DNA of 64,000 nucleotides. It comes from Desulfurococcaceae archaeon. Its GTDB lineage: Archaea; Thermoproteota; Thermoprotei_A; Sulfolobales; Desulfurococcaceae. The notes beneath the pieces are model-generated. The model was given only the letters and a program-made list of their open reading frames with translations, had not been told where the DNA came from and did not search any database. Below are positions 24,872 through 45,487 of the stretch, piece by piece. Position numbers and translations under genes: made by a program. Position 1 is the first letter of the stretch, and each line of letters starts with the position of its first letter. The stretch is from assembly GCA_038816475.1 (NCBI GenBank), contig JAWBAI010000007.1:10142-74141 (forward strand), read 5' to 3'.

Positions 24872-24945
24872 GGGCCCGTAGCTCAGCTTGGTGGAGCGCC
24901 CGGCTGATAACCGGGAGGTCCGGGGTTCAAATCCCCGCGGGCCCA
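24872..24945 (+). tRNA. tRNA-Ile (GAU)
   Basis: Acceptor GGGCCCG/CGGGCCC-A, anticodon arm CCCGG-CTGATAA-CCGGG, T-loop GTTCAAATC; no intron, CCA not encoded. Confidence 0.97.
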
Positions 24946-44055: not shown

Positions 44056-44529
44056 ATGACTAGGGTTGCCGAAAGGTTTAGTTTTGTCAACTTCGGGAAC
44101 ATATGCTCCTCGTGTAGTATAAACTGCTGTAGAAGATTCTACGCTGTACTACTACCCGAGGAGGAAGAGGAGTTCAAAGACGTAGCCTTTACAATTAGCA
44201 CTGAGCGCGGTGAAGTAAAATGCATAGGCTCCAGAAGCAGTAAACCATGTCCCTTTCTCGACAGCAGAAGCCTATGCACAATTTACAATAAACGACCCCT
44301 GGACTGTAGACTATGGCCAATCATAGTGTACATAGACTTTAAAACAAGAGAAAAAGTGGTTTACTTAGACATGGACTGTCCAGCAGCAAAAGAAGGTAGA
44401 ATACCCAGGGAAATCATAGAAAAAATAGTCGAGGAAATCAAGAAAGTAGAATTAAACGAATCATGGCTTGAAAAGTACACACTAGCTCCGTGGCCTAACA
44501 ACCTTGTGGAAATAACCAGGTACAAATAG
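44056..44529 (+). CDS. YkgJ-family Cys-cluster (Fe-S/Zn) protein
   Basis: C..C...CC, CPFL, C.IY..RP..CRLWP. Confidence 0.88.
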   Translation: MTRVAERFSFVNFGNICSSCSINCCRRFYAVLLPEEEEEFKDVAFTISTERGEVKCIGSRSSKPCPFLDSRSLCTIYNKRPLDCRLWPIIVYIDFKTREKVVYLDMDCPAAKEGRIPREIIEKIVEEIKKVELNESWLEKYTLAPWPNNLVEITRYK

Positions 44530-44553: not shown

Positions 44554-44735
44554 GGGCCGGTTTACCCCGATCTCCACATAGTAATAAGCTTAACATACTG
44601 GTAAAACACAGAGACCGAGACTGTAAACCAGCACCCACCCGGTTTCCCGGGTGAGCGCCAGCTTACAGCCCCGACCCCCGTGTTTCACCAGTATGTTAAG
44701 CTTATTACTATGTGGAAACCGGCTGGGCCCGGCCC
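44554..44735 (-). ncRNA. Unknown long-hairpin RNA on a bulge-helix-bulge motif; predicted 161-nt circular product (44562-44722)
   Basis: 44573-44642 pairs with 44647-44716 without gaps. All 12 non-WC positions are G-U on the minus strand, the loop is GAAA, and the base forms a canonical BHB. Confidence 0.85.
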
Positions 44736-44896
44736 AGTTTATTACTTGTGCTGATCTTATACATAAGTAGAATGTTTTGTATTAAATGTGCTTACTATCG
44801 TTTTTTCTGCGAACTCTTAAGGCGTTTTTGTATAAGTATTGTTCAAGTAATACGTTCTTCATAATATGGAATGGTATTACTTGAACTATCTTGTTC

Positions 44897-45487
44897 TTAC
44901 TCTTGCTTCCGAGTATTCCATACTATGGTATATGGTGAGACCAAAATTATATTTTTACGTGTTATCTCATCAAAAGCCGAGGGGTGAATGTACAAGCCGT
45001 AGATCAATGCAACTATCCTGTAGTTGAGACCTAGGGTTGCTACTACTTTCTCTATTTTCTCAGCTAGATTAACTACATCCTCCCTGTGAACCCTAGATTT
45101 CGCTTCACCTATTACAACAACTCTTTCACCAGTTTTCCTGTGGTATCCAATACCGTAGAAGTCTACTTCAATGTACTTCCCGTCAACGGTGAAGAAAGCC
45201 CTGCTCAGCTGTGAAACCTCTATGTCCGCGTTGTGAAGTAACCATGATGGAAGAAAGACTCTAGCTGTATCCTCGATTATGAGTCCATAAATATCACTTA
45301 GTCGACTAACTTCTCGCGATAGCTCGTTTACGTGTTTTCCTATCTTCTCAATCTTATCGGCGAGTAGCATAATCGTTTTCTTCAACTCATCAATGTCTTT
45401 ACTATCAGTACTAGCGTCCAGTACCTCGTTGGAACCGCATTTTCTTCTGAATAGTCCTCTGTTAAACAGTACTGCGAAGAACCCCAA
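44897..45487 (-). CDS. Coiled-coil plus PD-(D/E)XK nuclease-like protein
   Basis: Heptad region followed by G.IIE, IEVD, IGEAK. Confidence 0.75.
   Translation of the reverse strand: MGFFAVLFNRGLFRRKCGSNEVLDASTDSKDIDELKKTIMLLADKIEKIGKHVNELSREVSRLSDIYGLIIEDTARVFLPSWLLHNADIEVSQLSRAFFTVDGKYIEVDFYGIGYHRKTGERVVVIGEAKSRVHREDVVNLAEKIEKVVATLGLNYRIVALIYGLYIHPSAFDEITRKNIILVSPYTIVWNTRKQE

What the first reader, a model, noticed from the sequence alone, without database searches (positions are those of the whole stretch)
44554..44735. Free-standing BHB-flanked 70-bp hairpin: predicted genome-encoded dumbbell circular RNA
Seen in the sequence: 44573-44642 pairs with 44647-44716 without a gap. The outer 30 bp are perfect and AU-rich. 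The inner 40 bp have 12 non-WC positions, all A-C on the plus strand and therefore all G-U on the minus strand. The minus-strand loop is a GAAA tetraloop. This one-sided pattern indicates selection on RNA structure, not on a DNA palindrome. The minus-strand base reads 5'-GGGCCGG GCCC AGC CGGUU-[stem]-GAUCG GGGU AAA CCGGCCC-3': a 7-bp outer helix, a 4-bp central helix (GCCC/GGGU), two 3-nt bulges (AGC, AAA) each 3' of the central helix, and a 5-bp inner helix. Established: this is the canonical bulge-helix-bulge cut by the archaeal splicing endonuclease EndA after the second bulge nucleotide, and excised pieces are circularised by RtcB, as for tRNA/rRNA introns and the permuted Thermoproteus SRP RNA. 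Inference: the product is a 161-nt covalently closed rod (44562-44722, ~76 bp, capped by GAAA and GGUAA loops). The paired exon arms are only 13+8 nt and are not a tRNA or rRNA, so the circle itself looks like the gene product. A TATA-like TTATGTATAAG lies ~25 nt upstream (~44756-44766). I recognise no known family. Possible roles include dsRNA decoy or antitoxin, guide precursor, or a viroid-like or selfish RNA.
Basis: partly seen in the sequence, partly recalled or inferred. Interest (0 to 1): 0.92.

Follow-up and report, generated by a model that had tools for sequence, protein, structure and literature searches.

The report
Stand-alone splice-motif hairpin RNA gene
A small gene in hot-spring archaea encodes a perfectly paired, roughly 180-base RNA hairpin whose base carries the archaeal splicing signal, so it is probably cut out and sealed into a tiny double-stranded RNA circle, and it always sits just after one nuclease gene.

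Summary
Positions 44573-44642 and 44647-44716 give 58 Watson-Crick pairs and 12 A-C oppositions, which are G.U on the minus strand, and nothing else. The minus strand folds at -153 kcal/mol against -105 for the plus strand.

It is a conserved RNA gene, not a chance palindrome.
- A hairpin of this kind lies about 150-250 nt downstream of a DUF3782/DUF8196 PD-(D/E)xK nuclease gene, on the same strand, at 19 of 24 places in Desulfurococcaceae genomes. These fall in three genera, one of them Thermogladius.
- Nine of 10 metagenome loci carry it too.
- Stem sequences are unrelated between species, but pairing is kept: 90% of cells are paired, and 78 of 81 pairs show two or more Watson-Crick types.
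- G.U outnumbers A.C 219 to 28 on the gene strand.
- The bulge-helix-bulge (BHB) motif at the base covaries. It is canonical in 10-11 of 19 hairpins, relaxed or weakened in 7-8, and absent in one.
- A TATA-like box lies about 30 nt upstream.
- The genome encodes two EndA subunits and RtcB.

No RNA data exist for this organism, so cleavage and circularisation are inferred and the function is unknown. No Rfam family or paper matches it.

The parts
44554..44735 (-). Whole hairpin precursor (182 nt): outer helix, BHB, 75-76-bp stem, GAAA loop
   Evidence: covariance model R1 scores 153.7 bits
44729..44735 (-). 5' strand of the 7-bp outer (exon) helix
   Evidence: outer-helix columns 100% paired with compensatory changes in 7 aligned homologues
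44725..44728 (-). 5' strand of the 4-bp central BHB helix
   Evidence: 69 of 72 cells paired in 18 homologues, with C-G to U-A changes
44722..44724 (-). 5' three-nucleotide bulge; predicted cut between 44723 and 44722
   Evidence: the cut position follows recalled EndA rules
44562..44722 (-). Predicted excised and ligated 161-nt circle (77 bp capped by a tetraloop and a pentaloop)
   Evidence: inference; not shown experimentally
44643..44646 (-). Apical GAAA loop; the about 11 bp below it are the only stem part conserved in sequence
44564..44567 (-). 3' strand of the central BHB helix
44561..44563 (-). 3' three-nucleotide bulge; predicted cut between 44562 and 44561
44554..44560 (-). 3' strand of the outer helix
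44535..44553 (-). Pyrimidine-rich trailer after the hairpin, a likely termination zone
   Evidence: 3' trailers of the 19 homologues listed; inference
44760..44766 (-). TATA-like heptamer starting 31 nt upstream of the outer helix
   Evidence: a similar box at -29 to -32 in 15 of 19 homologues; tRNA promoters in the window look alike
44774..44782 (-). Conserved A-rich nonamer about 8 nt upstream of the TATA-like box (BRE or factor site?)
   Evidence: alignment; sequence
44838..44889 (.). Inverted repeat conserved in sequence (arms 44838-44853 and 44874-44889) between the nuclease gene and the hairpin promoter
44897..45487 (-). Upstream partner gene: 196-aa coiled coil (DUF3782) plus PD-(D/E)xK nuclease domain (DUF8196)

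Best explanation
This is a dedicated non-coding RNA gene on the minus strand. Transcription starts within a few nucleotides of the outer helix, from a TATA-like promoter about 30 nt upstream, and ends in the pyrimidine-rich trailer. [quoted passage not shown] RtcB then seals the excised piece into a covalently closed, almost fully double-stranded 161-nt rod (148-164 nt in most homologues). The 13+8-nt exon stubs are waste.

What is conserved is the pairing, the length, the BHB and the apical 11 bp plus loop; the stem sequence is not. The RNA therefore acts as a shaped, exonuclease-proof dsRNA object rather than by base-pairing to a target. It forms a two-gene module with the upstream coiled-coil PD-(D/E)xK nuclease and most likely works with it as a bound regulator, inhibitor or scaffold.

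Shown: the structure, its conservation, the strand, the linkage and the presence of the processing enzymes. Inferred: the transcription start, cleavage, circularisation and partnership with the nuclease.
For: Structure and strand:
- Over 19 homologues there are 1493 Watson-Crick pairs, 219 G.U pairs and only 28 A.C 1x1 mismatches on the gene strand. That strand is the more stable in 19 of 19.
- In a model-guided alignment of 18 homologues, 1292 of 1435 cells pair and 78 of 81 pairs show two or more Watson-Crick types.
- On a MAFFT alignment of 7 of the 19 homologues, 78% of cells pair against 39-45% with partners slid by 1-3 columns.

BHB:
- A scanner finds a canonical motif in 11 of 19 hairpins (one frame doubtful), against 157 of 3800 shuffled ends and 0 of 19 on the opposite strand.
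- The central helix pairs in 69 of 72 cells, with compensatory changes.
- G007 keeps the geometry with entirely different letters.

Other support:
- Length is 172-193 nt in 18 of 19.
- The TATA-like box is at -29 to -32 in 15 of 19.
- The genome holds two tRNA_int_endo genes and one RtcB gene, and ARAGORN of 63 tRNAs intron-bearing.

Linkage to the nuclease gene:
- A hairpin follows the gene at 19 of 24 places in family genomes.
- The same holds at 9 of 10 metagenome loci; the tenth is cut by its contig end.
- The other flanking genes differ between genera.
- G008 lacks both the gene and the hairpin at the syntenic site.

The protein's D/E...ExK residues are invariant and its fold matches NucS/EndoMS, MspJI and Cas4.
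Against: No RNA evidence exists. The look-up of sequencing runs listed no RNA holder, so expression, cut sites and the junction are untested.

- G004 has a fully paired base with no bulges.
- Six homologues have only relaxed motifs. G005, G003 and G013a have 3 of 4 central pairs. G010 and G014 have an enlarged 5' bulge or a 1-2-bp inner helix. G021 has 2+3-nt or 3+4-nt bulges. G012 has an inner helix of 1 bp before an internal loop, and G025 has a 1-bp outer helix.
- The energy-minimum fold of the window copy prefers a 6x6 internal loop to the 4-bp central helix.
- One common population variant (44576 A>G) makes an A.C mismatch on the minus strand.
- Partnership with the nuclease rests on gene order alone. 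Thirteen loci of more distant paralogues have no hairpin.
- The neighbourhood is housekeeping genes, and no defence family matches the protein.
Confidence: 0.6

Rival explanations
1. A linear long-hairpin RNA. The transcript is made as described but EndA does not process it. The conserved asymmetric loop at the base and the conserved tip are protein-binding sites, for example for the adjacent nuclease, and the resemblance to a BHB is partial convergence.
For: G004 keeps the hairpin, its length and its tip but has no bulges. Six homologues depart from the canonical motif. RNAfold prefers a 6x6 loop in the window copy. The 3' strand of the base loop and the tip loop share a similar G-N-N-A-A pattern in several homologues.
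Against: The 4-bp central helix covaries: 69 of 72 cells pair, with C-G to U-A and G-U to G-C changes. G007 rebuilds a canonical BHB from different letters. The canonical motif occurs in 11 of 19 hairpins against 4.1% of shuffles and 0 of 19 on the other strand. The (alpha-beta)2 type of EndA cleaves non-canonical motifs (abstract of PMC5829648, seen in the listing).
Confidence: 0.2
2. An intron or processing element in the 3' untranslated region of the nuclease mRNA. The hairpin is co-transcribed with the upstream gene, and EndA excision controls the mRNA's 3' end or stability. The circle is then a by-product.
For: The hairpin is on the same strand as, and always downstream of, the gene. No oligo-U terminator is visible between the gene and the hairpin. 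A BHB intron in an archaeal mRNA has precedent (cbf5, recalled).
Against: A TATA-like box at a fixed -29 to -32 in 15 of 19 homologues places a start right at the outer helix. The strict conservation of stem length, full pairing and tip sequence is not needed for a mere excision signal.
Confidence: 0.1
3. A DNA-level palindrome, such as a cruciform, a recombination or replication site, or a target of the neighbouring Hjc-like nuclease, with no RNA role.
For: The outer 30 bp are a perfect DNA inverted repeat. The neighbouring protein has a restriction-endonuclease or resolvase-like fold, and one Atlas cluster carries Hjc. Metagenome contigs break inside the repeat.
Against: The strand asymmetry of 219 G.U against 28 A.C, the better fold of the gene strand in 19 of 19, and a BHB on one strand only (0 of 19 on the other) cannot be explained by DNA symmetry. 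Wobble pairs cluster in the apical half, where they would weaken a cruciform.
Confidence: 0.04
4. A mobile or selfish element: a MITE, an intron remnant, or an integrated viroid-like RNA.
For: The rod-like shape is reminiscent of viroids. G013 carries two modules, and the distribution among genera is patchy.
Against: There is one copy in the genome. It is syntenic with the same gene in three genera. No match was found in phage, plasmid or viral collections. There are no terminal repeats or target duplications, and no host gene is interrupted.
Confidence: 0.02

Closest known systems
Archaeal BHB introns of tRNA and rRNA genes, excised as stable circles (for example the tRNA-Trp intron and rRNA introns of Desulfurococcus and Pyrobaculum; passages of PMC3326292)
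   Same: A helix-bulge-helix-bulge-helix motif at the exon-intron borders. EndA cleavage and ligation of the excised piece into a circle are predicted in the same way.
   Different: There is no host gene. The exons are a 7-bp helix with about 13+8 nt, the unit has its own promoter, and the 'intron' is a perfect hairpin with no ORF and no C/D box.
Pre-16S and pre-23S rRNA processing stems with a BHB, which give circular pre-rRNA intermediates (abstracts seen in the listings)
   Same: A long helix closed at its base by a BHB, with the enclosed RNA released as a circle.
   Different: Here the helix encloses only a tetraloop, so it resembles a processing stem with no cargo.
Permuted SRP RNA of Thermoproteus, made functional by BHB cleavage and circularisation (PMC4731332, abstract seen in the listing)
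   Same: The circular product of BHB processing is itself the functional RNA.
   Different: SRP RNA is a universal family with a known partner and role. This RNA matches no Rfam family and is confined to three genera among those searched.
Engineered circular-RNA expression cassettes that flank a cargo with BHB or tRNA-intron arms (bioRxiv 10.64898/2026.10.12.758436, abstract seen in the listing)
   Same: The same design logic: promoter, BHB arms, cargo, with endogenous endonuclease and ligase making the circle.
   Different: This one is natural, its cargo is a dsRNA rod, and it is linked to a nuclease gene.
RNA-protein two-gene modules such as type III toxin-antitoxin pairs or retron ncRNA with its effector (recalled)
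   Same: A small structured RNA gene is kept next to an enzyme gene across lineages while the other flanking genes change.
   Different: There are no tandem repeats, the RNA lies downstream with its own promoter, the protein is a PD-(D/E)xK nuclease with a coiled-coil stalk, and no toxicity or binding has been shown.
DUF3782 family of prokaryotic PD-(D/E)XK endonucleases with coiled-coil stalks (passages of PMC4786415)
   Same: The partner protein has the N-terminal coiled coil and the C-terminal nuclease domain described for the crenarchaeal members.
   Different: In the passages I saw, that paper treats only the coiled coil and mentions no RNA partner or function.

Membership tests
Archaeal BHB (hBHBh') splicing-endonuclease substrate | Two 3-nt bulges on opposite strands separated by a 4-bp helix, each bulge 3' of its central-helix strand | tested here: met
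   Window copy. Canonical in 10-11 of 19 homologues, relaxed in 6, one flanking helix weak in 2 (G012, G025), absent in 1 (G004).
Archaeal BHB (hBHBh') splicing-endonuclease substrate | Flanking outer and inner helices | tested here: met
   The outer helix has 7 bp and the inner helix at least 12 bp in the window. Both covary. G025 has only a 1-bp outer helix.
Archaeal BHB (hBHBh') splicing-endonuclease substrate | The organism encodes EndA and the ligase RtcB | tested here: met
   Two PF01974 genes (94 and 32.6 bits) and one PF01139 gene (592 bits) in the same assembly.
Archaeal BHB (hBHBh') splicing-endonuclease substrate | Actual cleavage in both bulges and ligation of the excised piece into a circle | not testable with these tools
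   No RNA run holds the sequence. This needs RNA-seq junction reads or an in vitro assay.
tRNA or rRNA intron | The exons belong to a tRNA or rRNA gene | tested here: not met
   ARAGORN and Rfam find only tRNAs at 24872 and 31963/4 in the window and nothing at the locus.
Any curated Rfam family | A match at or above the family's gathering score | tested here: not met
   The best match at the locus scores 21.5-22.4 bits against gathering scores of 74-79 (generic miRNA-hairpin models).
MITE or insertion-sequence remnant | Multiple dispersed copies in the genome | tested here: not met
   Only self-matches in the own genome. It is the only long hairpin in 1.15 Mb. No genome had a second locus in the covariance-model search, which has limited sensitivity.
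Viroid-like or Obelisk-like replicon | An RNA replicon that is not encoded at a fixed chromosomal locus | tested here: not met
   It is encoded in chromosomal DNA at a syntenic place in 19 genome loci and 9-10 metagenome loci, and is present in DNA metagenome contigs.
PD-(D/E)xK nuclease superfamily, DUF3782/DUF8196 (partner protein) | A restriction-endonuclease-like fold with acidic residues and an E-x-K motif, plus an N-terminal coiled coil | tested here: met
   E107, D109, E128 and K130 are invariant in 18 sequences. AlphaFold2 pLDDT is 82.9, with a helix at 25-87 followed by an alpha/beta domain. Foldseek top hits are EndoMS/NucS, MspJI and Cas4 SSO0001. PF26618 and PF12644 labels come; the local Pfam scan gives only E 0.03 for DUF3782.
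Type III toxin-antitoxin system | A tandem-repeat RNA antitoxin processed by, and bound to, an endoribonuclease toxin | tested here: not met
   There are no tandem repeats, and the RNA is a single hairpin downstream of the gene. Toxicity and binding cannot be tested here.

The most novel reading that the evidence does not exclude
The circle and the upstream protein form a new kind of RNA-nuclease module. A genome-encoded, covalently closed dsRNA rod of fixed length, made by the tRNA-splicing machinery, binds the coiled-coil PD-(D/E)xK endonuclease through its two similar end loops and holds it inactive or directs it. The nuclease would be released when transcription, EndA or RtcB activity, or the RNA itself is disturbed, for example by a virus. 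That would be the first natural use of BHB circularisation to build a protein-regulating dsRNA, and the first function for the DUF3782/DUF8196 nucleases.
Probability: 0.3. Interest if true: 0.88.

Novelty: new variant of a known kind. Interest (0 to 1): 0.74.

Why it matters
BHB processing is known for introns, rRNA precursors and a permuted SRP RNA, and in each case it serves another RNA's maturation. Here the whole transcription unit appears to exist only to produce the excised circle, a near-perfect dsRNA dumbbell. Comparative evidence for this (covariation, strand bias, promoter, length constraint) is as strong as sequence alone can give.

If confirmed, it would add a new class of archaeal non-coding RNA. 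It would also be a natural counterpart of engineered circular-RNA cassettes, and it would give a first functional handle on a widespread, uncharacterised nuclease family. It is directly testable in a cultured Thermogladius strain.

It also offers a clean example of how a genome keeps a 76-bp RNA helix without keeping a perfect DNA palindrome, because the wobble pairs are concentrated toward the apex.

Tried and rejected
Expression. The look-up of sequencing runs (kind any) listed 24 runs, all DNA(?) and kept as contigs, of which 20 hold the stretch or part of it. No RNA holder was listed. Read laying on 4 DNA runs gave only population variants and contig breaks inside the repeat, with no joints.

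Known families. Rfam at gathering scores and at E up to 10 gave nothing usable. ARAGORN gave nothing at the locus.

Guide or antisense ideas.
- The longest complementarity between each hairpin and its upstream gene region is 0-9 nt, within the range of shuffles (maxima 10-12).
- The 30-nt perfect arm has no exact match in viral contigs.
- The 182-nt element has no blastn match in the phage or plasmid collections.
- It has no other match in its own genome.

Defence or virus labels for the protein. PADLOC and PHROGs gave only noise. A profile search of PDB sequences gave only coiled-coil noise.

Similarity searches for the RNA. BLAST with the hairpin in 61 relatives found only the 20-30-nt tip. 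Homologues were therefore found through tip and base patterns and then through synteny with the protein.

Consensus folding and model search.
- RNAalifold on a MAFFT alignment of 17 hairpins failed: it gave 20 pairs and none at the base or the tip. I replaced it with a structure projected from the window copy.
- The genome-wide covariance-model search is limited by its first-look filter. It missed 8 genomes with known copies (G003, G004, G005, G007, G010, G013, G014, G021), so it says nothing about absence.

Distant paralogues. Thirteen loci of more distant paralogues showed no hairpin scoring 25 or more.

Context. The neighbourhood of the window is ordinary metabolism, not a defence island.

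Literature. Searches (listings and abstracts) and passages of PMC3326292 and PMC12558985 showed no description of a free-standing BHB hairpin gene. The search for PF26618 found nothing. The search for DUF3782/DUF8196 found 2 papers, one of them relevant. Supplementary files were not opened; supplementary circRNA tables of archaeal circRNA-seq papers might list a relative in other species.

Not used: complex prediction, the search of protein representatives, the listing of cluster members.
Full report
1. THE OBSERVATION

The window at 44554-44735 contains an 89-nt-arm inverted repeat with a 4-nt spacer. By direct count, 44573-44642 against 44716-44647 gives 58 Watson-Crick pairs and 12 A-C oppositions on the plus strand, with no G-T and nothing else. 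The outer 30 pairs are perfect and 67% A+T. Every A-C opposition becomes a G.U pair on the minus strand. That strand folds into 76 uninterrupted pairs plus a 7-bp outer helix at -153.0 kcal/mol (z -18.8). The plus strand reaches only -105.1 kcal/mol.

[quoted passage not shown] A cut after the second bulge nucleotide releases 44562-44722, which is 161 nt.

The element is the only long hairpin in the 1.15-Mb assembly and is single-copy.

2. IT IS A CONSERVED FAMILY

BLAST with the hairpin in 61 relatives found only 20-30-nt matches to the tip. Reading those places showed long hairpins with the same base and tip but unrelated stems.

The gene upstream on the same strand (44897-45487, 196 aa) served as an anchor.
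- It is found in 22 of 63 genomes of the family, at 24 places.
- At 19 of those 24 places a hairpin follows its stop codon by about 150-250 nt, on the gene's strand. These places lie in three genera: g1 (the window's own genus), g6 and g10.
- A named record places g10 in Thermogladius.
- The five places without a hairpin carry the most distant copies (33-38% identity). With eight further order-level paralogue loci they make 13 loci in which my scan found no hairpin.
- Ten metagenome loci found with the protein carry the hairpin in 9 cases. The tenth is cut by the contig end at the tip.
- The total length is 172-193 nt in 18 of 19 hairpins; G006 has 235 nt.

3. SELECTION ACTS ON RNA PAIRING ON THE GENE STRAND

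- Over the 19 hairpins the minimum-energy folds hold 1493 Watson-Crick pairs, 219 G.U pairs and only 28 A.C single mismatches. The gene strand is the more stable in 19 of 19.
- A covariance model (R1) was built from 7 of the 19 homologues, chosen because their base is canonical, with the structure projected from the window copy. With default filters it recovers 18 of 19, and it recovers the last one with filters off.
- In the model-guided alignment of 18 hairpins, 1292 of 1435 cells pair (90%), and 78 of 81 pairs show at least two Watson-Crick types. This alignment is fitted to the structure, so it leans toward it.
- On the plain MAFFT alignment of the same 7, 78.2% of cells pair, against 39-45% when the partners are slid by 1-3 columns. 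There, 54 of 86 pairs have double-sided changes.
- Wobble pairs and G-C pairs concentrate in the apical half (18% G.U and 55% G-C). The basal half has 11% G.U and 41% G-C.

My inference is that the wobbles keep the RNA helix while breaking the centre of the DNA palindrome, where cruciform extrusion would start.

4. THE BHB

A scanner required 4 of 4 central pairs, 3-nt bulges, an outer helix of at least 4 bp and an inner helix of at least 2 bp. It finds the motif in 11 of 19 hairpins, one of which (G021) is in a doubtful frame. The controls give 157 of 3800 shuffled ends (4.1%) and 0 of 19 on the opposite strand.

The central helix pairs in 69 of 72 cells, with C-G to U-A changes in five sequences and G-U to G-C, U-A or A-U changes in single sequences. 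G007 has a canonical motif built from completely different letters.

Departures from the canonical form:
- G012 has an inner helix of 1 bp before an internal loop.
- G025 has a 1-bp outer helix.
- G010 and G014 have a 4-5-nt 5' bulge or a very short inner helix.
- G005, G003 and G013a have one mismatch in the central helix.
- G021 has 2+3-nt or 3+4-nt bulges.
- G004 is fully paired, with no bulges.

The genome encodes two EndA-family proteins, which matches the two-subunit (alpha-beta)2 type. By the abstract of PMC5829648, seen in the listing, that type cleaves non-canonical motifs. The genome also encodes RtcB. ARAGORN calls introns in 20 of 63 tRNAs, some of them doubtful.

5. A TRANSCRIPTION UNIT OF ITS OWN

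A TATA-like heptamer starts 29-32 nt upstream of the outer helix in 15 of 19 homologues. In the window it lies at 44760-44766. A conserved A-rich nonamer precedes it. The two tRNA genes of the window have similar boxes about 30 nt upstream. The sequence after the hairpin is pyrimidine-rich in most homologues.

I infer that the primary transcript is essentially the hairpin itself, so the exons are stubs of about 13 and 8 nt plus a tail. No tRNA, rRNA or Rfam family overlaps the locus.

6. THE PARTNER GENE

The protein has a 63-residue helix (residues 25-87) followed by an alpha/beta domain (AlphaFold2, mean pLDDT 82.9). Foldseek places that domain with NucS/EndoMS, MspJI, Cas4 SSO0001 and AF1548, all of the PD-(D/E)xK fold. 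E107, D109, E128 and K130 are invariant in 18 sequences.

Precomputed labels are PF26618 (DUF8196) and PF12644 (DUF3782). The local Pfam scan gives only a weak DUF3782 hit. A paper on coiled coils calls this a family of prokaryotic PD-(D/E)XK endonucleases with coiled-coil stalks, notably in crenarchaea. In the passages I saw, it gives no function (PMC4786415).

Only this gene stays next to the hairpin.
- The other neighbour is a CxxCxxCC protein in g1, a metallophosphoesterase in Thermogladius and an ABC ATPase in g6.
- G008 (95% complete) has the CxxCxxCC gene but neither the nuclease gene nor a hairpin beside it.
- G013 carries two modules of different subgroups, one with an in-frame TAG in the protein.
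- RNA subgroups follow protein subgroups, as expected if the pair is inherited as a unit.

7. WHAT IT IS NOT

- It is not an antisense regulator of its neighbour: complementarity is at most 9 nt, and shuffles reach 12.
- It is not a spacer-like match to known viruses or plasmids.
- It is not a repeat element.
- It does not lie in a defence island, and the protein matches no known defence family.

8. POPULATION DATA

Twenty DNA(?) runs hold the stretch or part of it, most of them from hot-spring metagenomes. No RNA run holds it. In four of those runs, three variants fall inside the hairpin. 44556 G>A and 44657 G>A make G.U or U.G pairs on the minus strand. 44576 A>G makes an A.C mismatch there. 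This is two for and one against, which is too few to weigh.

9. VERDICT

The structure, its strand, its conservation, its promoter and its linkage to the nuclease gene are shown. EndA cleavage and RtcB circularisation are a well-grounded inference, which I put at about 0.6-0.65. It is weakened by one homologue without bulges and six with relaxed motifs.

The function is unknown. The best guess is a protein-binding dsRNA circle that works with the adjacent nuclease (about 0.3-0.4).

Noticed in passing
window 44838-44889: An inverted repeat with 14-16-nt arms and a spacer of about 20 nt lies just after the nuclease gene's stop codon. It is conserved in sequence, not merely in pairing, across the genus, and an A-rich TATA-like motif follows it. 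It looks more like a protein-binding operator than a terminator. Two other sites with one mismatch exist in the genome (C6:7861, C8:2189), but neither has an obvious partner arm.
   Followed up: partly
G000 contig C3:57000-60110 (loci L085, L086): The second, weaker EndA-family gene (probably the structural subunit) lies about 1.5 kb upstream of RtcB on the same strand. This suggests a splicing gene cluster.
   Followed up: no
G013 (loci L040 and L052): One genome carries two nuclease-hairpin modules of different subgroups. The second protein copy has an in-frame TAG.
   Followed up: partly
window 44573-44716, in runs X2, X6, X8 and X10: Metagenome contigs (Logan) repeatedly end or start at the borders of the 30-bp perfect arms, so the palindrome breaks assemblies. 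Copies of this RNA gene may therefore be under-represented in MAGs.
   Followed up: no
G000 contigs C1:18927-20834 and C2:93164-93251: ARAGORN in intron mode calls a tRNA-Ser with an 1817-nt intron and a 'tRNA-Stop (tta)'. Both are probably artefacts of the permissive intron search, but neither was checked.
   Followed up: no
hairpin ends in all homologues (for example window 44561-44567 and 44643-44646): After the predicted ligation, the loop at the base end would be a G-N-N-A-A pentaloop. It resembles the tip loops of many homologues (GAUAA, GUGAA, GCGAA), so the circle would be a nearly two-fold symmetric dumbbell.
   Followed up: partly
window 44056-44529: The convergent neighbour is a CxxCxxCC (PF03692) putative metal-binding protein. 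It is syntenic within the genus but not in the other two genera.
   Followed up: partly
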